A DNA stretch of 64,000 nt from assembly GCA_039812545.1 (NCBI GenBank), contig JBDIAR010000001.1, positions 1,946-65,945 of the forward strand, given 5' to 3'. The translations under genes and the position numbers were made by a program. Positions 5,073-42,421 of the stretch are shown piece after piece. This stretch comes from Dermatophilaceae bacterium (GTDB taxonomy: Bacteria; Actinomycetota; Actinomycetes; Actinomycetales; Dermatophilaceae). Positions within the stretch are counted from its first letter, which is position 1, and every line of letters begins with the position of its first letter. Under the pieces are notes generated by a model, which had not been told where the DNA came from, did not search any database, and saw only the letters and a program-made list of their open reading frames with translations.

Positions 5073-5143
5073 GGCGCTCCGCCCAGGGCGGCTGAGTCTG
5101 ACCCGCCGAGGCCCTGTTTCTTCGGGTCGGAGGTAATCGGGTT

Positions 5144-5184
5144 GGAGGTAATAGCGGACGCTACGAGCGTCCGCTATTACCTCC
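5144..5184. repeat. REP-like perfect palindrome (copy 1), probable bidirectional terminator; an extra GGAGGTAAT half-site lies at 5129-5137
   Basis: GGAGGTAATAGCGGACGCT (5144-5162), loop ACG, AGCGTCCGCTATTACCTCC (5166-5184): 19-bp perfect stem. Sits between convergent genes. A related copy is at 31205-31253. Confidence 0.8.
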
Positions 5185-6342
5185 ACTCGCGGGGGTAGCG
5201 CGCGGAACGGCCGTCTTGCGGGCGGCGCGTTTGGTCGTGGTGCCGTGACTGGCCGACCTGCGGCCGGTCGCCGGGGTGCCGCTGGTGGCGGGGTCGGGCT
5301 CGGGCGTGCCGCCGGACTGAGCAGCCAGCGCAGTCGGGTCGACGTCGGGACCGGCCTGCGGCCCGCCGTCCTTGCCGGCCTTCCCCGTGTCGCCCTTCGT
5401 GTTTCCCTCGCCCTTGTCTGGCTTGGCCGGCTTGGCGTCCCCGTCCTTGGCTTCCTTGCCCTTGCCCTTGCCCTTGGTCTTGCTCTTGTCGGTGTCGTTG
5501 TGGTCGAGCAGGGTGTCGGCGTAGTCCGGGACATAGCGCTGCGAATTGCGCGGCGGCCGCAGGTAGTCCCTCGCCTCCGGCCGGGTCGGGATCTCGACCG
5601 TCGGCGGTTGCAGATGCAGATAGGGCACCGAGTCGAGCAGATGCCGGATCACATTGATCCGCGAGCGCTTCTTGTCCTCGCTCTCCACGACGAACCACGG
5701 CGAACTCGGCAGATCGGTGTGCGCGAACATCCGGTCCTTGGCCCGCGAGTAGTCCTCCCAGCGGGTGATCGACTCGACGTCCATGGGGGAGAGCTTCCAC
5801 CGGCGCATCGGGTCGTCCCGCCGGGACCGGAATCGGCGCTCCTGCTCGACGTCGGAGACCGAGAACCAGTACTTGCGCAACATGATTCCGTCGTCGATGA
5901 GCATCTGTTCGAACACCGGCACCTGGCGCAGGAAGCGCTCGTACTCCACGTCGGTGCAAAAGCCCATCACGCGTTCGACTCCGGCGCGGTTGTACCAGGA
6001 GCGGTCGAAGACGACGATCTCCCCGGCCGCCGGGAGGTGTTCGACGTAGCGCTGGAAGTACCACTGCGTCTTCTGCCGGTCGCTCGGAGAGGGCAGCGCC
6101 GCGATCCGGACCCATCGCGGATTGAGGTACTCGGTCATCCGCTTGATCGCCGAACCCTTCCCCGCGGCGTCGCGTCCCTCGCAGATGACGACCAGTCGAT
6201 TGCCGGTCTGCTGGACCCACGCCTGCATGGTGACCAATTCGGCCTGCAGGTGCGCCAATTCGGCTTCGTACCGCTCTTTGGGCAGCTTGCGCATTCTGAT
6301 TCGGTCGGCCTCGGTGCCTTCTGGTCCGGTCATGGCCGACAT
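5161..6342 (-). CDS. ppk2: Polyphosphate kinase 2 (PPK2) with a ~110 aa Lys/Gly/Pro-rich C-terminal tail
   Basis: VVICEGRDAAGKGSAIKRMTEYLNPR (Walker A), FDRSWYNRAGVERVMGF and a PPK2 lid region. Tail is DKSKTKGKGKGKEAKDGDAKPAKPDKG... Confidence 0.9.
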   Translation of the reverse strand: MSAMTGPEGTEADRIRMRKLPKERYEAELAHLQAELVTMQAWVQQTGNRLVVICEGRDAAGKGSAIKRMTEYLNPRWVRIAALPSPSDRQKTQWYFQRYVEHLPAAGEIVVFDRSWYNRAGVERVMGFCTDVEYERFLRQVPVFEQMLIDDGIMLRKYWFSVSDVEQERRFRSRRDDPMRRWKLSPMDVESITRWEDYSRAKDRMFAHTDLPSSPWFVVESEDKKRSRINVIRHLLDSVPYLHLQPPTVEIPTRPEARDYLRPPRNSQRYVPDYADTLLDHNDTDKSKTKGKGKGKEAKDGDAKPAKPDKGEGNTKGDTGKAGKDGGPQAGPDVDPTALAAQSGGTPEPDPATSGTPATGRRSASHGTTTKRAARKTAVPRATPASGGNSGRS

Positions 6343-12373: not shown

Positions 12374-13081
12374 CTACAGATACTGGCCGGTCGGACCGCC
12401 ACCGCTTTGCGGACCCGGAATCACCTGACCACCCGGCCCGGGCACAGCGCCCGGCTGGAGGGCGTCCGGCATACGAGGCTGACCCGGTCCCTGCGGCAGG
12501 GCACGCATCTGTTGGAGTTGCTGCTGCGCCGCCATCTGCTGGGCGACCAACGCGGTCTGTATGCCGTGGAAGAGTCCTTCCAGCCACCCGACGAGTTGGG
12601 CCTGGGCGATCCGCAGTTCGGCGTCGCTGGGTGCGGTGTCGCTGAACGGCAGGGCGATCCGGTCGAGTTCGGCGACGAGCTCGGGGGCCAGGCCGTCCTT
12701 GAGTTCGTCAAGGGAACGCTTGTGGATCTCCGCCAGTCGAGCCCGGCCGGCATCGTCGAGCGGGGCGCCACGCACCTCCTCCAACAGTTGCTTGATCATC
12801 GTGCCGATCCGCATCACCTTGGCGGGTTCCTCGACGAGGTCCGCGGGGTTGGTGGGCCCGTTGTCCGCCCCCGCGGGCGCGTCCTGATCGACCGGCTTCG
12901 GGGGATGGGCGACGCCCATCCCGTCCGGGGTCACCACGACCACCCGGGCGTCGGAGTCCTCGGGAGCGGAGCGGACCGGCATACCGGGAATGGTCCGGTT
13001 GATCGGGTCATGGCTATGTGCCTGCTCATGGTCGGGCCCGTGGTCGGGCCCGTTGGCGCCGTCGGGGCGTTGTTCGCTCAT
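12374..13081 (-). CDS. bpa: Bacterial proteasome activator Bpa (PafE)
   Basis: ATG 13081 follows GGAGGA. Disordered N-terminus, four-helix region (MRIGTMIKQLLEEVR...LVGWLEGLFHGIQ), Gln-rich linker, and a C-terminus ending ...GGGPTGQYL (the GQYL 20S-docking motif). Confidence 0.8.
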   Translation of the reverse strand: MSEQRPDGANGPDHGPDHEQAHSHDPINRTIPGMPVRSAPEDSDARVVVVTPDGMGVAHPPKPVDQDAPAGADNGPTNPADLVEEPAKVMRIGTMIKQLLEEVRGAPLDDAGRARLAEIHKRSLDELKDGLAPELVAELDRIALPFSDTAPSDAELRIAQAQLVGWLEGLFHGIQTALVAQQMAAQQQLQQMRALPQGPGQPRMPDALQPGAVPGPGGQVIPGPQSGGGPTGQYL

Positions 13082-13110
13082 GGAAGTTCCTCCGGTCGAT
13101 CGGTCGTCGG

Positions 13111-14241
13111 TCAGCCGGCCATCGCGTCGAGTCCGGCGGCCAGCCGGGCCACCGTGCCGTCGACGTCGGCCCACTTGTCGAGCCCGAACAGTCCGACGCG
13201 GAAGGTCGAGAAGTCCGCCCCCTCGTCGCACATCAGCGGCACCCCCGCGGCGGCCTGGATGCCCACGTCGACGAACTTACGTCCGGTCTTCATCCCCGGG
13301 TCGTCGGTGTAACTCACCACCACCCCCGGCGCCTCGAAGCCCGGCGCGGCCACCGAGGCATACCCGCGGGCGGCGAGCAGCGCCCGGACCTTGCGGCCGA
13401 GGTCCATCTGCCGACTGCGGGCCTCCTTGAAGCCGAGGTTCCTGGTCTGGCCCATGACCTCGGCGTTGTGCGCCAGCGCATCGGTCGGCATCGTCGCGTG
13501 ATAGGCGGCGGCGCCCCCGACATAACCCTCGGCGATGGTCAGCCACTTGAACAGGTCGAGCGCGAAGCTGCTGCTCGTGGTGCCCTCGATGGCCGCCCGG
13601 GCCCGCGGGCCGAACATCACGAACGCCCCGCACGGCGAACCGCTCCACCCCTTCTGGGGCGCGCTGATCAGCAGGTCGATGCCGAGGTCGGCCATGTCCA
13701 CCCACATCGCGCCGGAGGCGATGCAGTCCAGGACGAATAATCCCCCGACCTCGTGGGTGGCATCGGCGACGGCCCGCAGGTAGTCGTCCGGCAGCAGGAT
13801 GCCGCTGGCGGTTTCGACGTGCGGGGCGAAGACGACGGCGGGCTCGTCGGCGCGGATGGCCGCCACGACCTCCTCGATCGGGGCCGGCGCCCACGGCGCG
13901 GTGGGGGAGTCGTCCACCGGTCGGGCCGGCAGGACCGTCACGTCCTTGGTGATGGCTCCCGCGTCGATGATCTGGGACCAGCGGTACGAGAAGTACCCGT
14001 TGCGCAGGATCAGGCAGGTGCGATCGTGGGCGAACTGACGCGCGACCGCCTCCATCCCGGAGGTCCCGCTGCCGGGCACGAACGCCACGGTTTCGGCGTG
14101 GTAGGCGGCTTTGAGGATCGACACCAGGTCCTGCATCACGGCGATGAACCGCTTCGACATGTGGTTCAGTGCTCGGTCGGTGTAGACGACCGAGTACTCC
14201 AGCAGGCCGTCCGGGTCGACGTCGTCGCGCAGCGCAGTCAT
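13111..14241 (-). CDS. Class V aminotransferase (alanine/serine-glyoxylate aminotransferase family)
   Basis: 376 aa. LEYSVVYTDRALNHMS and LDCIASGAMWVDMADLGIDLLISAPQKGWSG, which contains the PLP Lys in the SAPQK context. Confidence 0.85.
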   Translation of the reverse strand: MTALRDDVDPDGLLEYSVVYTDRALNHMSKRFIAVMQDLVSILKAAYHAETVAFVPGSGTSGMEAVARQFAHDRTCLILRNGYFSYRWSQIIDAGAITKDVTVLPARPVDDSPTAPWAPAPIEEVVAAIRADEPAVVFAPHVETASGILLPDDYLRAVADATHEVGGLFVLDCIASGAMWVDMADLGIDLLISAPQKGWSGSPCGAFVMFGPRARAAIEGTTSSSFALDLFKWLTIAEGYVGGAAAYHATMPTDALAHNAEVMGQTRNLGFKEARSRQMDLGRKVRALLAARGYASVAAPGFEAPGVVVSYTDDPGMKTGRKFVDVGIQAAAGVPLMCDEGADFSTFRVGLFGLDKWADVDGTVARLAAGLDAMAG

Positions 14242-27101: not shown

Positions 27102-27235
27102 ATGACTCGCCTACCCGTCGCCTGTGTGTGCTTGGTCTGGTACGTGTGCATCGTCTGCGACCCGCGCCCGGTCCGAGGCGGCCGGGGCGTTGATCATGTC
27201 CGACTGTGCCACGCCGAAGGGTGTACCGTCATCTC

Positions 27236-27333
27236 ACCAACGACAGGGGAGCGCGATAGCGCTGAGAGTGCGGCCCACCCACGGGCCGCAGACCCTCGAA
27301 CCTGCTCCGGTTAGCACCGGCGAAGGGAGTCAG
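27236..27333 (+). promoter_or_regulatory. TPP (THI-box) riboswitch
   Basis: ACAGGGGAGCGCGAUAGCGCUGAGAGUGCGGCCC...GCAGACCCUCGAACCUGCUCCGGUUAGCACCGGCGAAGGGAG. CUGAGA, ACCCU, GAACCUG and the CGGUUAGCACCGGCG..AGGGA core are all present. The 3' AGGGAG doubles as the RBS of the next gene. Confidence 0.9.
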
Positions 27334-27337
27334 CTGT

Positions 27338-28495
27338 ATGCCGATCCATCCGTTCCGCTCGACGCTGCGGTCGGCCGCCGGGGCCGCTCTGACCGTGGGC
27401 GCGCTGGCCGCGTGCTCGCTCAGTTCCGGCGGCTCCACGACCTCGACCTCCCCGGCGCCCGCCCCCGGGACGACGAGTTCGTCGGGCACCTCGGGAGGTT
27501 CGGCGCCGGCCGGCGGTAAGGCGTGTCCCGACGGGGGCACCGTCCAGGTCGCGACCCACGACTCGTTCAAGGTGCCCGACGCGGCGCTCGCGGCGTTCAC
27601 CGCCGCGAGCGGCTGCCGGGTGCAGATCCTCAAGAACGGCGACGCCGGTCAGCTGACCACCAAGCTGGTCCTCACCAAGAGCTCGCCGATCGCGGACGCC
27701 GTCTACGGCATCGACAACACCTATGCCGGTCGTGCGGTGTCCGCCGGGCTGCTCACGGCATACACGCCGGCCCTCCTGCCGCCCGGGGCGGCGGATCATG
27801 CGGCCACCGGCGCCGGTGCCGCCGTCCTGACCCCGGTCGACTACGGCGACGTCTGCGTCAACATCGACGACACCTGGTTCGCCGCCAGCCAGATCGCACC
27901 GCCGAAGACCTTCGAGGATCTGACCAAAGCGTCCTACAAGGACCTGTTCGTCACCCCCTCGCCGACCACGTCGAGCCCCGGCATGGCGTTCTTCCTGGCC
28001 ACCGTCGCCACCTACGGTCAGGACGGCTGGACGGAGTACTGGACCAAGCTGAAGGCCAACGGGGTCAAGACCACCTCCGGCTGGTCGGACGCCTACTTCG
28101 TCGACTTCACCCAGGGCGGCGGCAAGGGCACCCGGCCGATCGTCTTGTCGTATGCGTCGTCGCCGCCGTTCACGATCCCCAAGGGCAAGACGAATCCGAC
28201 GACCTCGGCGCTGCTGGACACCTGTTTCCGCCAGACCGAGTATGCCGGTGTCCTCGCCGGGGCCAAGAACGAGGCGGGCGCCAAGGCGTTCGTCGACTTC
28301 CTCCTGACGTCCGCGGTGCAGGAGTCCATCCCGGACAACATGTACATGTACCCGGTGGTCAACACGGTTGCGCTGCCGGCGAGTTGGGCCCGCTGGGCGA
28401 AGCTGCCCCAGGCGCCGCTCAGCGTGGACCCGGACGTCATCGACTCGAAGCGGGACGCCTGGCTCAAGGCGTGGACGGAGCTGATGGGTTCGTGA
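27338..28495 (+). CDS. thiB: Thiamine ABC transporter substrate-binding lipoprotein
   Basis: Lipobox LAAC|S. Periplasmic-binding fold immediately downstream of the TPP riboswitch. Confidence 0.8.
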   Translation: MPIHPFRSTLRSAAGAALTVGALAACSLSSGGSTTSTSPAPAPGTTSSSGTSGGSAPAGGKACPDGGTVQVATHDSFKVPDAALAAFTAASGCRVQILKNGDAGQLTTKLVLTKSSPIADAVYGIDNTYAGRAVSAGLLTAYTPALLPPGAADHAATGAGAAVLTPVDYGDVCVNIDDTWFAASQIAPPKTFEDLTKASYKDLFVTPSPTTSSPGMAFFLATVATYGQDGWTEYWTKLKANGVKTTSGWSDAYFVDFTQGGGKGTRPIVLSYASSPPFTIPKGKTNPTTSALLDTCFRQTEYAGVLAGAKNEAGAKAFVDFLLTSAVQESIPDNMYMYPVVNTVALPASWARWAKLPQAPLSVDPDVIDSKRDAWLKAWTELMGS

Positions 28496-30192
28496 GCGCA
28501 CCGGCCGGGGCGGCGGCGAGGCCGCCGACGCGCCCGGCCGGGCTGCTCGGCCCCCTCGGGATTGCGCTGACCGCCGCAATCCCGTTGGCATTCCTCGGGA
28601 TCTTCTTCGTGTTGCCCGTGGTCGGAATGATCTCGCGTGGCCTGGTCGGCGAATCCGGTGTGGATCTGGGGGGATTCGCGGAGGTGTTCGGTCGCAGCCG
28701 CACCCTGGGGGTCATCCGGTTCACGGTGGGCAGTTCGCTGCTCGCGACCGCGGTGACGGTCGCACTCGGCCTGCCCCTGGCATACACGTTGCATCGCTTG
28801 CGGATTCCCCTGGCGGGCCTCTGGCGCGCCCTGGTCATGATGCCCTTCGTCATGCCGACCGTCGTCGTCGGGGTGATGTTCCGTTCGCTGCTCGCACCCG
28901 GCGGGATGCTCGGCGGCCTCGGTCTGGACGGGTCCTGGGTGGCCATCCTCGCCGCCTTCGTCTTCTTCAATCTCGCGGTCGTCGTGCGGACCGTCGGCGG
29001 CGCCTGGGAGGCTCTCGACCCGCGCACCGAACAGTCCGCGGCGGCGCTGGGCGCCTCGCCGTGGACGGTGTTCCGCACGGTCACGGCACCGGCGCTCGCG
29101 CCGGCCGTCGTCTCGGCGGCCTCGGTGGTGTTCCTGTTCTGTTCCACGGCATTCGGCGTGGTGCTCACGCTCGGCGGGATGAAGTACGGCACGGTCGAGA
29201 CCGAGATCTACCTGCTGACCACCACCCTGCTCGACCTGCGTGGCGCGGCAGCACTGAGCATCGTGCAGTTCGTGGCCGTCGCGGCGATGCTGTGGCTGGC
29301 CGGTCGCGCCCGCGAGCGGGTGGAGGGGCGACGGGTGGGTCGCGGGACCCGGTCGGCGCCTCTGCCTCTGCGTCGCGGTGGCCGGGGGTCCTGGGCGGCG
29401 GTCGGGGTGTCGGTCCTGACGATGGTGTTCATCGCGTTGCCCGTGACGTCGTTGGTGGTCCGGTCGTTCCGCGACGACGGGGGGTGGACGACCGCGAATT
29501 ACGTCGCGCTGACGACATTGTCGAGCGACAACGCGCTGTCCGTCACCGTGTGGCAGGCGCTGTCCACGTCCTGGCGGATCGCGGTCGACGCCGCGCTGCT
29601 GGCCATGGCGCTCGGGCTCGCGGTGAGCGTCGTCGTGACCCGTCGGCCCCGGACGCCGGCCGGTCGACGAGGGCTGGCCGTCCTGGACGGGGCGTTCATG
29701 CTGCCGCTCGGGATCTCCGCTGTGACGGTGGGTTTCGGGTTCCTGGTGACCTTGGACCGGCCGCCGTTGGACCTGCGATCCTCGCCGGTGCTCATCCCCA
29801 TCGCGCAGGCCATGGTCGCGTTGCCGCTCGTCGTGCGGACCGTGGCTCCGGCGCTGCGGGCCATCGACGACCGTCAGCGGCAGGCCGCGGCCGCGCTCGG
29901 GGCGTCCCCCCTGCGGGTGTTGCTGACCGTCGACCTGCCGGTGGTGTGGCGACCCGTGCTGGCGGGTACCGGATTCGCGTTGGCGGTGTCGATGGGCGAG
30001 TTCGGGGCGACGAGCTTCCTTGCCCGACCGGACAACCCGACTCTGCCCGTCGTCGTCTACGGCCTCATCGGCCGACCCGGTGCCGAGAACTTCGGCATGG
30101 CCTTGGCCGCCTCCGTGGTCTTGTCCGCGGTCACCGTCGCCGTCCTCGGGGCCGTCGAACGCCTGCGGGTCGGCCGGTTGGGGGCGTTCTGA
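28492..30192 (+). CDS. thiP: Thiamine/iron-type ABC transporter permease (two fused permease domains)
   Basis: GTG 28492 overlaps the thiB stop (GTGA). About 12 TM with duplicated EAA-like loops (EQSAAALGASPWTVFRTV and RQAAAALGASPLRVLLTV). Confidence 0.8.
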   Translation: MSAPAGAAARPPTRPAGLLGPLGIALTAAIPLAFLGIFFVLPVVGMISRGLVGESGVDLGGFAEVFGRSRTLGVIRFTVGSSLLATAVTVALGLPLAYTLHRLRIPLAGLWRALVMMPFVMPTVVVGVMFRSLLAPGGMLGGLGLDGSWVAILAAFVFFNLAVVVRTVGGAWEALDPRTEQSAAALGASPWTVFRTVTAPALAPAVVSAASVVFLFCSTAFGVVLTLGGMKYGTVETEIYLLTTTLLDLRGAAALSIVQFVAVAAMLWLAGRARERVEGRRVGRGTRSAPLPLRRGGRGSWAAVGVSVLTMVFIALPVTSLVVRSFRDDGGWTTANYVALTTLSSDNALSVTVWQALSTSWRIAVDAALLAMALGLAVSVVVTRRPRTPAGRRGLAVLDGAFMLPLGISAVTVGFGFLVTLDRPPLDLRSSPVLIPIAQAMVALPLVVRTVAPALRAIDDRQRQAAAALGASPLRVLLTVDLPVVWRPVLAGTGFALAVSMGEFGATSFLARPDNPTLPVVVYGLIGRPGAENFGMALAASVVLSAVTVAVLGAVERLRVGRLGAF

Positions 30193-31229
30193 TGGACGGG
30201 CTGCACATCACCGACGCCACCGTCCGATTCGGTGGCACGACGGCGGTCGACCACGTCACCCTCGCGATTCCGGGGGGAACGGTGCTGGCCGTCCTCGGTC
30301 CCTCCGGTTGCGGCAAGTCGACCCTGCTGCGCGCCGTATGCGGGTTGGAGGATCTCTCCTCCGGCAGCGTGTCGTATGACGGTGACGATCTGGCCGCGGT
30401 CCCGACCTATCGGCGGGGGTTCGCGTTGATGTTCCAGGACGGCCAGCTCTTCGCGCATGCCGACGTCGCCGCCAACGTGGCATACGGCATGCGGCGCAAA
30501 GGGATTCGTGGCACGGAACTCGACGGGGAGGTGGAGCGCCTGCTCGAGCTGGTCGGACTCGGCGGGTATGGTCGGCGCCGCCCGGCGACCCTGTCCGGCG
30601 GCGAACAGCAGCGGGTCGCGCTGGCCCGGGCGCTGGCCGCCCGGCCGCGACTCCTGCTCCTGGACGAACCCCTGTCGGCGCTGGACCGCTCGCTGCGGGA
30701 GCGTCTGGCGGCGGACCTGCGGGCGATCCTCGTGGAGACCGGGACCACCGCCATGCTCGTCACCCACGACCACGACGAGGCGTTCACCGTCGCCGACCGG
30801 ATGGCGGTGATGCTGCGCGGCCGGATCGTGCAGGAGGGACCGACGGCGCAGGTCTGGCAGTCGCCCGCCGATCCCGAGGTGGCCGAATTCCTCGGCTACG
30901 ACACGGTTCTGGATCCCGAGGCCGCGGCCCTGCTCGGGTTGTCCCTCCCCGCAGGTGAACGAATCGCCTTGGGGCGCAGCGCGCTCCGCCTCGATCCGGC
31001 GGGACCGATCACGGCCACGGTGGTTCGGGCGGCGGCGGCCCGCGGCGGCATCCACCTGGAGGTCCGCATCCCGGGACTGCCGCAGCTGCCGGCCGTCGGC
31101 GACCTGACCACCCCGCCGTCGCCCGGATCGCAGGTCCGGCTGCGCGTCGACCCCGCCGGCACCGCGGCCCTGGACCCCGCTCAACCCCCGCCCGCCCAAT
31201 CCCCGGTTGGAGGTAAAACCGGCCGCTAG
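30192..31229 (+). CDS. thiQ: ABC transporter ATP-binding protein (thiamine importer)
   Basis: [37 protein letters not shown]. The ATG overlaps the permease stop. Confidence 0.85.
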
Positions 31230-31253
31230 AAGCGGCCGGGAATACCTCCAACC
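31205..31253. repeat. REP-like palindrome (copy 2) spanning the overlapping stop codons of two convergent genes
   Basis: GGTTGGAGGTAAAACCGGCCGCT, loop AGA, AGCGGCCGGGAATACCTCCAACC. Shares GGAGGTAA..CGG.CGCTA..AGCG.CCG...TACCTCC with 5144-5184. Confidence 0.8.
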
Positions 31254-32455
31254 GCGAGCGGATTGGGCTCCGCCGACGGCTCGTACGCACACGTCGGGTC
31301 GGAGGCCAGCGGGTCGCCGGTCACGGCATACGCATGCGAACGCGACCCCCCGCATACGTCGTGGAACTCGCACACCCCGCACTTGCCGACGAACCCGCCC
31401 GGATCGCGCAACGCCCGCATGATCGGCGCCTCGCGATAGATCGCCGCGAAATCGGTCTCCTTGACGTTGCCCGCCCGATGCGGCAGGAAGCCCGACGGAT
31501 AGACGAAACCCACGTGGTCGACGAACGCGAACCCACGCCCCGAGTTCACGTCGATCGGCGGGCGAGCCGGCCGTTCGTGGACCTCGCGGTCGCCCAGCGC
31601 CGCCACCGTGAGCGCGGTCAGCTCGGCGTGCAGCGGCCCGGTCGGCATGGTCACCCCGTCCTGGGCGGCGGTCGCGCGCTGGATCACGACCCGGCGGAAG
31701 TGCGGCGCCTCCGTCGTCTTGATCGCGATGTGATGCGACATGTCGACGAGCCAGTGGTGGACGTCCTCGATCTCGGCCGGGCTGAGCGCCACGAGTTCCT
31801 CCCCGCGGCCGGTCGGCACGAGGAAGAACACCGACCACAACGCCGCCCCCATGTCGAGGACGTCGGCGAGGACCTGGGGGAGTTCGCGCACGGTGTTCTT
31901 GGTGACGGTGGTGTTGACCTGCAACCGGTACCCGAGTTCCTTGACCAGCGCCGCCGCGCGCACCGTGTCGTCGTACGTCCCCGAAATCCCGCGGAACGCG
32001 TCGTGCGTTTCCGCCTTGGCCCCGTCCAACGACAGCGACACCGCCTTGGCGCCGGCCTCGCGCAGCGCGCCCAGTCGTTCGCGGGTCAGCAGCGGGGTCA
32101 CCGAGGGTGAGAGGGCCACCGACAGCCCGATGGACGACGCGTATGCCGTGAGCTCGATCAGGTCGGCGCGTTCGAACGGATCCCCGCCGGTGAGGACGAC
32201 GATCGGCCGCGGCCTGTCGAACGAGGCGATCGAGTCCAGCAGCGCCCGGCCCTGCGCGGTCGTCAACTGCTGCGGGTTCGGCAGCGGCATCGCCTCGGCC
32301 CGGCAGTGTTTGCACGCCAGCTGGCAGGCCCGGGTCACCTCCCAGATGACGATGAACGGCCGGTCGTGGATGTCGTGATGCAGATGGCGCACGGCGCGTT
32401 CCGGCGCGGTCACCGGCGGCCGGGACGTGCCCGTGCTCGGACCCGAGGTACTCAC
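31226..32455 (-). CDS. Radical SAM/SPASM-domain protein (AhbD/NirJ-like)
   Basis: GTG 32455 overlaps the hemY stop (GTGA). CQLACKHC (CxxxCxxC). C-terminal Cys cluster KCGVCEFHDVCGGSRSHAY...DPTC. Confidence 0.85.
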   Translation of the reverse strand: MSTSGPSTGTSRPPVTAPERAVRHLHHDIHDRPFIVIWEVTRACQLACKHCRAEAMPLPNPQQLTTAQGRALLDSIASFDRPRPIVVLTGGDPFERADLIELTAYASSIGLSVALSPSVTPLLTRERLGALREAGAKAVSLSLDGAKAETHDAFRGISGTYDDTVRAAALVKELGYRLQVNTTVTKNTVRELPQVLADVLDMGAALWSVFFLVPTGRGEELVALSPAEIEDVHHWLVDMSHHIAIKTTEAPHFRRVVIQRATAAQDGVTMPTGPLHAELTALTVAALGDREVHERPARPPIDVNSGRGFAFVDHVGFVYPSGFLPHRAGNVKETDFAAIYREAPIMRALRDPGGFVGKCGVCEFHDVCGGSRSHAYAVTGDPLASDPTCAYEPSAEPNPLAVGGIPGRF

Positions 32456-33912
32456 GGGTGGACTCCTTCGCTGAGGTGGGCGCTGACCGCGGCGGCTGCG
32501 CGGTCGGCTGAACTGACACACGAGGCGATGCCGATCCCGTCGTACCCGGCCCCGGCATACCAGATCCCCGGCAGGACATCACGCACCCGAGCCATGATCG
32601 CCGGATGGCCGACCTCGAGTTGCGCCATGGCCGCCGGCCAGCGCCGGATGAGGACGTCGGCGGGTTCGGCGGTCAGGCCGGTCAGGTCCGCCAGGTCGGC
32701 GCGCACGGCCCGCAGCAGCGCCTCGTCCGTGAGGGCGTCGGCGCTGTCCTGGCGCGCGCGGCCCACCGAGACCCGCACGATCGCGCGCCCGGGCGGGCGC
32801 ACATGGGACCACTTGCTGGACAGGAAGACCGCCGCCTTCAGGGTGCGTCCGGAGTCCGACCGGGTGAGGATGCCGGTGCCCCGGTAGGCCGGGTGCGCGG
32901 CCAGGTCTGTGCTGTCGTATGCCAGGGCGAGCGTGGCGACCGAGGCGTAGGGGATCTGGGCGAGTGCGTCGGCGGCGTCCGGGGCGAGCGGCTCGATCAG
33001 GGGGCCGGCCGCGCGCGCGGGCAGCGCCAGGACCACCGCCGACGCCGCAAGCGTGGTGGCCGCCGCGCCGCCGCAGTCGAGCGTCCAGCCGTCCGGGGCC
33101 CGGCGCAACCCGATGACCGGGCGGCCCGTCAGGACGTGGCCGCCGCCCGCCTCGATCTCCCGACGCAGCCGCTCGACGAGGGTGGACAGGCCGCCCGGCA
33201 ATGAGACGAAGACCGGAGAACCGCCCATCGGCCCAGCGCCACCGCCCGTCGGACCCGCCCCGCCCGGCCGGGGACGTCGTGAGAACCGAGCCAGCACCGA
33301 GGCGGTGAGTAGCGAACGCCGGGCCGCGTCGGCGCCGGCCAACAGCGGTGCGGCGGCGGCCAGCGAGAGGCGCCGCACGTCTCCGGCGTGCAGGCTGCCC
33401 ATCATCGGGTCGACGAACGTCCGGGTCACCGCCGCCCCGAACCGATGGTCGACGAAGTCCGCGACCGAGGCGTCCGGGCCGACCGGGCGCCGCGCCGCCA
33501 GCGGTTCCACGGCGGCGCGCGCCACGGCATACGGGGACAACAGGCCGGCCCGCAGCACCGGCCGCAGGCGGGTCGGGCCGGCGGGGCCCACCCCGGCCGG
33601 GAGTCGGCGCAGTCCGCGAGCCGTGGCCAGCCAGGTACCCCCGGGACCCGCTGGCACCGCCTGGTCGAGCAGCCCGAGGTCGCTCAGCAGGGCGCGCACC
33701 GGGGGAGCGGCCAGGTAGAGCGCCTCGGCGCCGAGTTCGACCGGGACCCCGCCCAGGGTGGCCGTGTCCAGCTGACCGCCCAGCCGCGGTCCGGCCTCCA
33801 CGAGCGTCACCGGGTGTCCCGCGCGCGTCAGCCGGTATGCCGTCACGAGTCCGGCGATGCCTCCGCCCACCACGACGACGCGCGGCGGGGTCGCCGCCGG
33901 GCTGTGGGCCAT
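32452..33912 (-). CDS. hemY: Protoporphyrinogen/coproporphyrinogen III oxidase (HemY/CgoX)
   Basis: MAHSPAATPPRVVVVGGGIAGLVTAYRL (FAD GxGxxG) and YAGAGYDGIGIASCV at the C-terminus. Start chosen at ATG 33912; upstream ATGs exist. Confidence 0.8.
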   Translation of the reverse strand: MAHSPAATPPRVVVVGGGIAGLVTAYRLTRAGHPVTLVEAGPRLGGQLDTATLGGVPVELGAEALYLAAPPVRALLSDLGLLDQAVPAGPGGTWLATARGLRRLPAGVGPAGPTRLRPVLRAGLLSPYAVARAAVEPLAARRPVGPDASVADFVDHRFGAAVTRTFVDPMMGSLHAGDVRRLSLAAAAPLLAGADAARRSLLTASVLARFSRRPRPGGAGPTGGGAGPMGGSPVFVSLPGGLSTLVERLRREIEAGGGHVLTGRPVIGLRRAPDGWTLDCGGAAATTLAASAVVLALPARAAGPLIEPLAPDAADALAQIPYASVATLALAYDSTDLAAHPAYRGTGILTRSDSGRTLKAAVFLSSKWSHVRPPGRAIVRVSVGRARQDSADALTDEALLRAVRADLADLTGLTAEPADVLIRRWPAAMAQLEVGHPAIMARVRDVLPGIWYAGAGYDGIGIASCVSSADRAAAAVSAHLSEGVHP

Positions 33913-38161: not shown

Positions 38162-38276
38162 GGTCTGCCGCGTGAGATTGGTATACCGCGGGTGATGGGT
38201 ATGCCGGGTGCTGCGGGTATGCCGCGTGCTGCTGGCATTCCGAGTGGTGGGTATGCCGGGTATGCCGGGCCTGTCG
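38162..38276. repeat. Intergenic tandem array of the 9-mer GGTATGCCG and variants (8 units; 18-bp period, then 9-bp)
   Basis: Units start at 38162, 38180, 38198, 38216, 38234, 38250, 38259 and 38268: GGTCTGCCG, GGTATACCG, GGTATGCCG x4, GGCATTCCG, GGCCTGTCG. Confidence 0.85.
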
Positions 38277-42170: not shown

Positions 42171-42335
42171 GTGCGCTCCTATGTGTTGGACCTGTATGTG
42201 CTGGACGTGCGGACCGGATACGACGAACGGTAGTGTTCCCGAGTCGCCTGAGCCCGCAATTGGGCCAACCTGGGAGTTTGCCGCACGAAAAGGTTGCGCG
42301 AACTGTGGGTGCGGGCCTGACGGCTGCGGTGAGGG

Positions 42336-42407
42336 CAGGTCAAGCGGTGACAACAGGTCGAGCGCTGACAACAGGTCAAGCGGTGACAACAGGTCAAGCG
42401 GTGACGG
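42336..42407. repeat. Four tandem 18-bp repeats CAGGTCAAGCGGTGACAA in a divergent promoter region
   Basis: Copies at 42336, 42354 (2 mismatches), 42372 (identical to copy 1) and 42390 (last 2 nt differ). Confidence 0.9.
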
Positions 42408-42421
42408 GATGAGGTCGCGAC

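What the first reader, a model, noticed from the sequence alone, without database searches (positions are those of the whole stretch)
31205..31253. Convergent genes share a CTAG stop inside a palindrome that encodes both C-termini
Copy 2 of the palindrome spans the 4-bp overlap of the thiamine ABC ATPase (stop TAG 31227-31229) and the radical-SAM gene (stop CTA 31226-28 on the minus strand).

The left arm encodes ...PVGGKTGR* for the + gene, and the right arm encodes ...AVGGIPGRF* for the - gene. Together with ppk2 (...SGGNSGRS*), three unrelated proteins end in a GG-x-x-GR tail templated by the element.

This suggests insertion of a mobile or recombinogenic palindrome at gene 3' ends that replaces native stops. 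It may also act as a bidirectional terminator.
Basis: partly seen in the sequence, partly recalled or inferred. Interest (0 to 1): 0.6.

Follow-up and report, generated by a model that had tools for sequence, protein, structure and literature searches.

The report
Hairpin repeat that caps gene ends
The palindrome is one of at least 31 copies of a 53-bp hairpin repeat that sits just after genes in this actinobacterium and sometimes supplies their stop codon and last residues; its repeat class co-occurs across the bacterial family with a hairpin-flanked AbiEi/DUF559-like gene, much as REP elements go with RAYT transposases.

Summary
At window 31203-31255 a 53-bp imperfect palindrome holds the CTAG in which the thiamine-type ABC ATPase (+, ...PVGGKTGR*) and a TIGR04053 radical-SAM gene (-, ...AVGGIPGRF*) both stop. 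PPK2 ends (...SGGNSGRS*) in the second copy at 5138-5190.

The element is one of 31 or more copies in this 3.3-Mb genome. Its stem covaries. Copies lie a median of about 28 nt downstream of stop codons and are enriched between convergent genes. Only 5 of 39 neighbouring gene ends run into a copy.

The tails are lineage-specific by-products. In a related species the same element sits at the same junction, but there the ABC gene stops at its own TGA 6 nt upstream. So the G000 tail arose from a later 10-bp indel and read-through, not from insertion.

The most interesting result lies outside the finding:
- The same palindrome class (TSGAKGTR-N25-29-YACMTCSA) occurs at 5 to 390 copies in 149 of 400 other genomes of the family.
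- It co-occurs (odds ratio 30) with a low-copy gene that is itself flanked by the local palindrome type. The gene has an AbiEi-like fold and a DUF559-like C-terminus.
- This is a REP/RAYT-like signature without a RAYT.

Terminator function and mobilisation are inferred, not shown.

The parts
31203..31255 (.). Copy 2 of the 53-bp palindromic repeat. The GGAGG..CCTCC core is at 31209-31249. The loop TAGAA carries the shared CTAG at 31226-31229.
   Evidence: The RNA fold is -47.9 (+) and -48.5 (-) kcal/mol, with z-scores of -9.0 and -7.4.
30192..31229 (+). ABC transporter ATPase, the last gene of an operon that follows a TPP riboswitch. Its final 7 residues (VGGKTGR) and its stop are encoded by the left arm and loop of the element.
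   Evidence: L005 comparison.
31226..32413 (-). TIGR04053-family radical SAM/SPASM gene. An alternative GTG start lies at 32521. Its final residues (VGGIPGRF) and its stop are encoded by the right arm and loop.
5138..5190 (.). Copy 1 of the repeat, a perfect 20-bp core stem with the core at 5144-5184. On the - strand the loop TCGTAG gives the PPK2 stop.
   Evidence: The same sequence occurs in another strain's assembly, L084.
5129..5137 (+). An extra solitary left half-box GGAGGTAAT directly upstream of copy 1 (partial or nested copy).
   Evidence: Nested double boxes were also seen beside the AbiEi/DUF559-like gene in other genera (L070, L077, L082).
5161..6342 (-). PPK2 gene with a long disordered Lys/Gly-rich tail. 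Its last 8 residues (GGNSGRS*) come from the element.

Best explanation
The palindrome at 31203-31255 is one copy of a REP-like hairpin repeat of about 53 bp. Its form is CGnnT-GGAGGTAAT-nnCGGnCGC, a 5-nt loop, then the mirror image. The genome holds at least 31 copies.

Shown: copies lie in the short spacer just downstream of genes, and preferentially between convergent genes.

Inferred: each copy is transcribed at the end of the upstream mRNA(s) and folds into a very stable hairpin. This hairpin probably acts as a terminator or 3'-end protector for both strands.

The element is an A/T-containing island in a 70% G+C genome. On each strand it carries TAA in one reading frame (GGAGGTAA). In about half of the strand readings it carries TAG in a second frame, at or next to the loop. 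So whenever a gene's own stop is lost, or a copy lands upstream of it, translation runs into the element and stops there. This produces the templated tails GG-x-x-GR(x)* or PGWR*.

The shared CTAG is a geometric by-product. CTAG is self-complementary, and in this copy it lies 18 nt and 21 nt (both multiples of 3) from the two GGA GGT boxes.

The tails are by-products, not selected peptide motifs.

The repeat class is family-wide. It is most likely maintained or spread together with a low-copy AbiEi-like/DUF559-like gene, which is itself flanked by the repeats. That last step is inferred.
For: Family and structure:
- 31 copies by nhmmer.
- 84.9% of stem cells are paired, 13 of 24 pairs show double (compensatory) changes, and 0 of 500 shuffles reach the observed values. 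Slid controls give 31-46% paired.
- Hairpin z-scores are -6.6 to -9.0.

Position:
- 12 copies are convergent, 13 tandem, 1 divergent, 1 intragenic and 4 at contig ends.
- The genome background is 402/1972/416. The binomial p for convergent excess is 1e-4.
- The median distance from stop to box is about 28 nt.

RNA-level hint: in one-gene contexts, stem mismatches are G-U-compatible on the transcribed strand 24 times and on the other strand 10 times (p = 0.012). On the - strand the inner GC stem of copy 2 is followed by TTTTAC.

Stop supply: the box TAA is in frame in 49 of 62 strand readings of one frame. A loop stop occurs in 28 of 62 readings of another. The third frame is open in 52 of 62.

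Tails are lineage-specific:
- Radical-SAM and ABC orthologues end variably just after the conserved core, and none ends with these residues outside the clade that carries the element.
- PPK2 tails differ in all homologues of 85% identity or less.

L005 shares the element at the same junction. There the radical-SAM gene ends ...VVGGIPGRF* and the ABC gene ends at its own TGA before the element.

An in-frame intragenic copy (AIGGDTGPASGPVSPPIPI) lies in a hypervariable linker of DnaE2.

Family-wide class and gene association.
Against: - No canonical U-tract follows the full stem, so this is not a textbook intrinsic terminator.
- Gene ends come from my own codon-usage ORF caller, not from a curated annotation.
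- No empty-site/filled-site pair was found for any individual copy, so mobility of single copies is inferred. The inference rests on copy-number differences between congeneric genomes (0 to 390).
- For the radical-SAM gene and PPK2 I cannot tell insertion upstream of the native stop from stop loss.
- The gene-repeat association is not corrected for phylogeny.
- The C-terminal nuclease fold was not confirmed by structure search.
Confidence: 0.72

Rival explanations
1. One reading: copies of a mobile palindrome insert into the 3' ends of genes and replace their native stop codons. On this view the tails record the insertion events.
For: - The radical-SAM gene ends inside the element in both G000 and L005.
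- PPK2 ends inside copy 1 in two strains.
- An in-frame intragenic copy in DnaE2 shows that copies can land in coding DNA.
Against: - In L005 the ABC gene keeps its own TGA upstream of the orthologous element, so the G000 tail arose after insertion, by a 10-bp indel.
- 34 of 39 adjacent gene ends do not overlap a copy.
- No target-site duplication or empty site was seen.
Confidence: 0.3
2. The palindromes act mainly at the DNA level, as binding sites for the AbiEi-like wHTH protein. They would be operators, decoys or nucleoid sites, and their place at gene ends would only reflect where insertions are tolerated. No RNA function is involved.
For: - The N-terminal 200 residues of the flanked gene's product fold like the AbiEi antitoxin (Foldseek 6y8q, E = 1.3e-4).
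- AbiEi proteins bind inverted repeats in their own promoters (PMC7319586, PMC3985639).
- The conserved part of the element is the terminal box, while the inner stem differs between lineages.
- One copy always lies 100-230 nt upstream of that gene.
Against: - Inner stems differ completely between lineages yet stay complementary. Stem mismatches are biased toward G-U on the transcribed strand. Both point to selection on a folded single strand.
- The divergent (promoter) regions expected for operators are depleted: 1 of 26 copies.
Confidence: 0.2
3. The GG-x-x-GR C-terminus is a selected functional peptide, for example a degron or a sorting signal, and the palindrome is secondary.
For: Three unrelated proteins share the motif.
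Against: - The motif is exactly the in-frame reading of the repeat consensus.
- All three cases lie in element copies.
- The motif is absent from orthologues, and only 3 of 2944 proteins carry it through the element.
- The ABC protein of the sister species lacks it.
Confidence: 0.03
4. An assembly or sequencing artefact at a hairpin produced the apparent 4-bp overlap.
For: The genome is a 271-contig draft, and 4 of 31 copies lie within 60 nt of contig ends.
Against: An independent Logan assembly of a related species (L005) has the same loop CTAG and the same right arm. Copy 1 is identical in another run's assembly (L084).
Confidence: 0.02

Closest known systems
TRIT ('Tuberculosis Rho-independent terminator') motif of Mycobacterium (Gardner et al. 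2011, PMC3152330)
   Same: - It is found in an actinobacterium.
- It is a sequence-conserved palindromic hairpin in many copies (147 in M. tuberculosis) and is mostly bidirectional.
- It is tightly associated with gene termini and often begins inside the coding sequence (around position -8), so gene ends overlap it.
- Its authors also suspected a dedicated binding factor.
   Different: - TRIT is reported only in Mycobacterium. The present class is essentially confined to one other family.
- No Rfam family matched the element.
- Copies here usually start about 20-28 nt after the stop.
- In what I read, no associated flanked gene has been described for TRIT.
REP / REPIN elements with their RAYT transposase (Nunvar 2010; Bertels and Rainey 2011, PMC3116915, PMC3337134)
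   Same: - Both are short extragenic palindromes in tens to hundreds of copies, lying at gene 3' ends.
- Both form lineage-specific sequence families.
- Both go with a low-copy gene that is itself flanked by the repeats and co-occurs with them across genomes.
   Different: - The genome has no Y1/RAYT gene (PF01797).
- The partner candidate is an AbiEi-like wHTH protein with a DUF559-like C-terminus.
- There is no 5' GTAG signature.
- Copies are mostly single hairpins, not REPIN doublets.
Small repeats that fuse to or enter ORFs: Rickettsia palindromic elements, Correia/ERIC-type elements, RU-2/RU-3 (reviewed in PMC3184786)
   Same: Repeats with open frames extend or replace the 3' ends of genes, or insert in frame inside genes. 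Here five C-termini and one internal DnaE2 segment are repeat-encoded.
   Different: Those elements are longer (about 100-170 bp), occur in other phyla and are unrelated in sequence. Here the element more often supplies a stop than an open frame.
AbiEi antitoxins (type IV TA/Abi systems)
   Same: The fold of the first ~200 residues matches. AbiEi binds inverted repeats near its own gene.
   Different: - No AbiEii toxin gene is adjacent in G000. The neighbours on C52 are unrelated ORFs.
- The protein carries an extra DUF559-like domain.
- Its inverted repeats are dispersed genome-wide.

Membership tests
REP/REPIN-RAYT system | Short imperfect palindromes, many dispersed extragenic copies | tested here: met
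   31 copies were found, and 29 of 31 lie outside or at the edge of genes.
REP/REPIN-RAYT system | A RAYT (Y1 transposase, PF01797) gene in the genome, flanked by the REPs | tested here: not met
   PF01797 gave no match in G000, while the control genomes were detected. The gene flanked by the repeats is of another family.
REP/REPIN-RAYT system | Conserved GTAG at the 5' end of the REP; REPIN doublet organisation | tested here: not met
   GTAG appears only in some loops (TCGTAG), not 5' of the stem. Most copies are single hairpins.
Intrinsic (Rho-independent) terminator | G+C-rich hairpin immediately followed by a U-tract | tested here: inconclusive
   The hairpin is very stable. No U-tract follows the full stem. 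The inner stem of copy 2 is followed by TTTTAC on the - strand only.
Intrinsic (Rho-independent) terminator | Transcript 3' ends map at the hairpin | not testable with these tools
TRIT (Mycobacterium) | Match to the TRIT consensus or covariance model | not testable with these tools
   No TRIT model was among the Rfam hits. The paper gives the logo only as a figure.
MITE | Terminal inverted repeats bounded by a direct target-site duplication | tested here: not met
   The bases outside the boxes are inverted (they extend the stem and covary), not direct.
Integron attC site | 5'-RYYYAAC ... GTTRRRY-3' core sites at the base of an imperfect hairpin | tested here: not met
   Some copies have GTTGGAG...CTCCAAC, but in the opposite order. 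Only about a third of copies have GTT. IntI was not searched for.
DUF559 (PF04480; Vsr-like PD-(D/E)XK) for the flanked gene's C-terminus | Pfam match above the gathering score; nuclease fold | tested here: inconclusive
   - The G000 protein scores 19.5 bits against a cut-off of 20.6 (E = 9.5e-4).
- 4 of 20 homologues match at E <= 0.01.
- The invariant motif is YLD...VE(I/V)DG..H.
- PvuRts1I matches at E = 0.017.
- The fold search of the domain model gave no significant hit.
AbiEi (N-terminal wHTH plus C-terminal domain) for the flanked gene's first ~200 residues | Fold match to solved AbiEi; Pfam AbiEi_4 | tested here: met
   Foldseek matched 6y8q_A with E = 1.3e-4, probability 1.00 and target-normalised TM 0.59, on a model with pLDDT 85. 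AbiEi_4 hit 4 of 20 homologues.

The most novel reading that the evidence does not exclude
The palindrome belongs to a RAYT-independent REP-like system. An AbiEi-type wHTH protein with a DUF559 (Vsr-like) nuclease domain, encoded by a low-copy gene bracketed by its own hairpins, would recognise the conserved terminal box (TSGAKGTR) at the base of the hairpin. It would then propagate, maintain or process these repeats throughout one actinobacterial family (probably Dermatophilaceae). Protein subfamilies and box variants would co-evolve.
Probability: 0.4. Interest if true: 0.8.

Novelty: new variant of a known kind. Interest (0 to 1): 0.6.

Why it matters
The shared CTAG stop on its own is a neat but minor by-product. 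It shows how a stop-rich hairpin repeat in a high-G+C genome acts as a 'backstop' that rewrites protein C-termini. Annotators of actinobacterial MAGs should expect this.

The larger point is that REP-like repeats in Actinobacteria are poorly understood. TRIT has no known partner factor, and REPIN-RAYT systems are described mainly in Proteobacteria.

Here the palindrome class reaches 390 copies per genome in one family. It co-occurs with a hairpin-flanked gene that combines a DNA-binding AbiEi fold with a putative nuclease domain, and it co-varies with that gene.

This gives a concrete, testable candidate for how such repeats are recognised or spread. It also suggests a possible function for a widespread 'AbiEi_4/DUF559' protein type.

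Tried and rejected
1. SD/anti-SD mimicry (GGAGGU pairing with ACCUCC). Rejected because the family-wide box is TCGAGGTA, TCGATGTA or TCGAGGTG. GGAGG is only the variant seen in this genome and a few other lineages (G000, G226 and others).
2. RAYT partner. PF01797 is absent.
3. Known RNA family. Rfam gives only chance miRNA-like hits well below threshold.
4. Genes 'sandwiched' between two copies as transposases. The C91, C96 and C112 genes are a secreted protein, a NUDIX-like protein and a small unknown ORF, judged from sequence only. Only the C52 gene proved relevant.
5. MITE or attC readings. Rejected; see the membership tests.
6. Empty-site search. The metagenome scan returned relatives (L018-L027), but none aligned across a G000 element site. 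The closest relative at the finding's site (L005) already carries the element.
8. Fold search of the C-terminal domain alone. No significant match.
9. Earlier scan notes. Only first-reader notes on the same window exist; nothing was found in other genomes.

Full report
OBSERVATION

Window 31205-31256 reads GGTTGGAGGTAAAACCGGCCGC-TAGAA-GCGGCCGGGAATACCTCCAACC.
- The + ORF carries an ABC_tran domain. It is the last gene of an operon that follows a TPP riboswitch at 27235-27345. It ends ...[10 protein letters not shown] at TAG 31227-31229.
- The - ORF is a Radical_SAM protein whose homologues are named TIGR04053 radical SAM/SPASM. It ends ...AVGGIPGRF* at CTA 31226-31228.
- The two convergent genes therefore overlap by 4 bp within one CTAG.
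- A second copy lies at 5140-5191, and PPK2 ends ...ASGGNSGRS* inside it.
- Both copies fold, on either strand, at -40 to -48 kcal/mol with z-scores of -6.6 to -9.0.

THE ELEMENT IS A REPEAT FAMILY

The window lies in a 3.31-Mb draft of 271 contigs at 69.7% G+C. Its completeness is about 98%.
- An nhmmer profile built from 18 seed copies finds 31 full-length copies and nothing in between.
- The consensus is CGnnT-GGAGGTAAT-nnCGGnCGC, a 5-nt loop, then the mirror image.
- On the 30 distinct copies, 84.9% of stem cells pair and 13 of 24 pairs show changes on both sides. Examples are positions 5/49 (UA 14, GC 13) and 17/37 (CG 10, GC 10).
- No shuffle out of 500 reaches the observed values. Slid registers pair at only 31-46%.
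- One position (21/33) is unpaired in 16 of 30 copies.
- No Rfam family matches.

WHERE THE COPIES SIT

I called genes with a codon-usage model trained on long high-GC3 ORFs. This gave 3061 genes covering 90% of the genome.
- 12 copies lie between convergent genes, 13 between tandem genes (always just 3' of the upstream gene) and 1 in a divergent spacer. One lies inside a gene, and 4 are at contig ends.
- Genome-wide there are 402 convergent, 1972 tandem and 416 divergent spacers. The convergent excess has p = 1e-4.
- The distance from the stop codon to the GGAGG box has a median of about 28 nt. Only 5 of 39 neighbouring gene ends reach into a copy.
- Where only one gene is upstream, stem mismatches are G-U-compatible on the transcribed strand 24 times against 10 (p = 0.012). 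This is a modest sign of selection on the RNA hairpin.
- No U-tract follows the full stem. On the - strand the inner GC stem of copy 2 is followed by TTTTAC.

WHY GENES END IN THE ELEMENT

Read in the frame GGA GGT ..., a stop lies in or next to the loop in 28 of 62 strand readings. In the next frame the box TAA is in frame in 49 of 62. The third frame is open in 52 of 62.

CTAG loops occur in 3 of 31 copies. In copy 2 the TAG lies 18 nt from one GGA GGT box and 21 nt from the other, so it is in frame on both strands. The shared stop follows from this geometry and from CTAG being self-complementary.

ARE THE TAILS LINEAGE-SPECIFIC?

- Radical-SAM homologues share ...SDPTCxYxP and then diverge in length and sequence. 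None outside the clade carrying the element ends VGGIPGRF.
- ABC homologues mostly end within a few residues of ...DPxGxAxLP. The G000 protein is about 18 residues longer.
- PPK2 homologues all have different disordered tails. Only a 99%-identical strain variant shares the end, and its contig has the identical element.

The decisive comparison is L005, a Logan contig whose ABC protein is 89% identical. It has the same convergent ABC/radical-SAM pair and the same element at the junction, with a decayed left arm (GGAGGCAAAA-CGGGCGC).
- There the radical-SAM gene ends ...VVGGIPGRF* in the same CTAG.
- The ABC gene ends ...HLSGGHP* at its own TGA, 6 nt before the element.
- G000 differs upstream by a 10-bp indel that shifts the frame and removes that stop.

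So the ABC tail arose by stop loss and read-through into an element that was already there. For the radical-SAM gene and PPK2 the order of events cannot be resolved.

AN INTRAGENIC COPY

The lowest-scoring copy (contig C159:5286-5326) lies in frame inside a DnaE2-type polymerase gene and encodes AIGGDTGPASGPVSPPIPI. Both boxes have changed to GGTGAT/ATCACC, and the loop has no stop. In nine relatives this position is a hypervariable linker of 0 to about 60 residues.

DISTRIBUTION

- The G000 box pair GGAGGTA-N27-TACCTCC is absent from the 40 nearest relatives. It is present in 21 of 401 genomes of the family (G000 included). Each lineage has its own inner stem, which is nevertheless self-complementary in nearly all of them (G226's copies pair only weakly).
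- Flanks of the gene described below showed that GGAGGTA is one variant of a more general box. The pattern TSGAKGTR-N25-29-YACMTCSA occurs at 5 or more copies in 149 of 400 other family genomes and at 30 or more in 37. The maximum is 390. The reversed control pattern gives 0-3.
- In 23 other families of the order the counts are 0-4, with one exception of 27 copies.
- Named hits suggest the family is Dermatophilaceae in the GTDB sense (inferred). These hits are Ca. Phosphoribacter baldrii, Arsenicicoccus, Ornithinimicrobium and 'Dermatophilaceae bacterium'.

A GENE THAT GOES WITH THE REPEATS

On contig C52 a single-copy 296-residue gene (12498-13388) is bracketed by two copies 1120 nt apart.
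- In metagenome contigs of a relative (about 85% nucleotide identity next door), a 64%-identical homologue is bracketed at 1121 nt, in a different genomic context. Homology stops at the elements.
- I examined 42 homologous loci from many genera. By a strict criterion (at least 15 complementary pairs plus the box), 16 have a box-bearing hairpin on both sides and 13 on one side.
- The upstream hairpin lies about 100-230 nt before the start. The downstream one lies 0-70 nt after, or across, the stop.
- Several of the remaining loci have hybrid hairpins in which an outer arm of the local canonical type pairs with a variant inner arm.
- More distant paralogues carry different cognate palindromes, for example TTCGAAGAAGG.
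- In G000 only 4 of 3061 genes are bracketed in this way.

Across the 400 genomes, a close homologue (E <= 1e-80) goes with 5 or more repeats in 125 genomes and with fewer in 37. Without a close homologue the split is 24 against 214.
- The odds ratio is 30, Fisher p = 1e-44 and Spearman rho = 0.61.
- Within one genus (g42) the split is 5/0 against 3/12, p = 0.004.
- These tests are not phylogeny-corrected, and exceptions exist. One is G264, with 33 copies and no homologue at E <= 1e-30.

WHAT THE PROTEIN LOOKS LIKE

- An AlphaFold model from 20 homologues has pLDDT 85.
- Residues 1 to about 200 match the AbiEi antitoxin of Streptococcus agalactiae (6y8q, E = 1.3e-4, probability 1.0). AbiEi proteins bind inverted repeats at their own promoters (PMC7319586, PMC3985639).
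- The C-terminal ~95 residues carry an invariant YLD...VE(I/V)DG..H motif. They match Pfam DUF559 weakly (19.5 bits against a cut-off of 20.6) and the restriction enzyme PvuRts1I at E = 0.017.
- A separate model of this domain found no significant structural neighbour. The nuclease assignment therefore remains unconfirmed.
- G000 has no RAYT.
- Full-text searches found no paper linking DUF559 to palindromic repeats. The top-listed REPIN/RAYT papers (from the search terms REPIN, RAYT, Actinobacteria) do not mention Actinobacteria.

INTERPRETATION

Shown:
- The finding's sequence facts.
- The repeat family, its covarying hairpin and its 3'-end and convergent bias.
- The templating and lineage-specificity of the tails, and the stop-loss origin of the ABC tail.
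- The family-wide palindrome class and its statistical and positional association with the AbiEi/DUF559-like gene.

Inferred:
- The hairpins act on RNA as terminators or 3'-end protectors.
- Copies move.
- The flanked protein recognises or propagates them.

The closest known analogues are TRIT of mycobacteria, which is conserved, bidirectional and overlaps gene ends (PMC3152330), and REP/REPIN-RAYT systems. Repeat-encoded C-termini and in-frame insertions are known from other repeat families (PMC3184786).

I rate the finding itself as ordinary but instructive. The associated system is a new variant of a known kind.

Noticed in passing
L055 (= G000 contig C52:12295-13455): A single-copy gene of 296 residues (AbiEi-like fold plus DUF559-like C-terminus) is bracketed by two copies of the palindrome 1120 nt apart. 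The same bracketed module recurs in most genera of the family. Its presence tracks the palindrome copy number (odds ratio 30).
   Followed up: yes
L008 (= G000 contig C159:5286-5326): An in-frame copy of the palindrome lies inside a DnaE2-type polymerase gene and encodes AIGGDTGPASGPVSPPIPI. It sits in a linker that is hypervariable among relatives.
   Followed up: yes
G000 contigs C30:12146-13225 (-) and C246:2043-3320 (+): Two further genes end in the element, at the TAA of GGAGGTAA. Both have the tail ...PGWR*.
   Followed up: partly
G000 contigs C115:22-62, C91:13628-13668, C179:6515-6555, C246:3313-3353: Four of the 31 copies lie within about 60 nt of a contig end. The repeat probably breaks the assembly, so 31 is a lower bound.
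   Followed up: no
L036, L037, L038, L033, L034 (flanks of the AbiEi/DUF559-like gene in genera g52 and g70): The flanking hairpins are hybrids. The outer arm has the genome's canonical box, and the inner arm is a variant (for example GGATGCCGAC in place of GGAGGTAAAC). The two sides mirror each other, as if the gene cassette sat inside the loop of one canonical palindrome.
   Followed up: partly
G092 (handle), e.g. C1:2588995-2589603; L029: One relative has 390 copies, including head-to-tail arrays with a period of about 63 nt. Some of these arrays lie on both sides of its AbiEi/DUF559-like gene.
   Followed up: no
L003:5697-6743: In a relative (GCA_029778415.1; radical-SAM protein 84% identical) the radical-SAM gene is followed by an AbiEi_4-annotated gene instead of the ABC gene. 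Its radical-SAM tail reads ...GVGGLPGLPGLPGRV..., faintly like the element-encoded tail.
   Followed up: no
window 27235-27345 (+): A TPP riboswitch (Rfam RF00059, 54.5 bits) lies upstream of the SBP-permease-ATPase operon whose last gene ends in the palindrome. This supports the thiamine-transport reading.
   Followed up: partly
window 38171-38276 and 42326-42415: Two tandem arrays with an 18-bp period were found, one built from GGTATGCCG-like units (repeat finder families D3 and D2). They are unrelated to the palindrome.
   Followed up: no
L001:7105-7147 and L002:1148-1190 (Ca. Phosphoribacter baldrii): Two copies of a related palindrome (GGAGGTATTCCCGGTCGG...) have flanks that are reverse complements of each other. 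This suggests an inverted duplication that includes the element.
   Followed up: no
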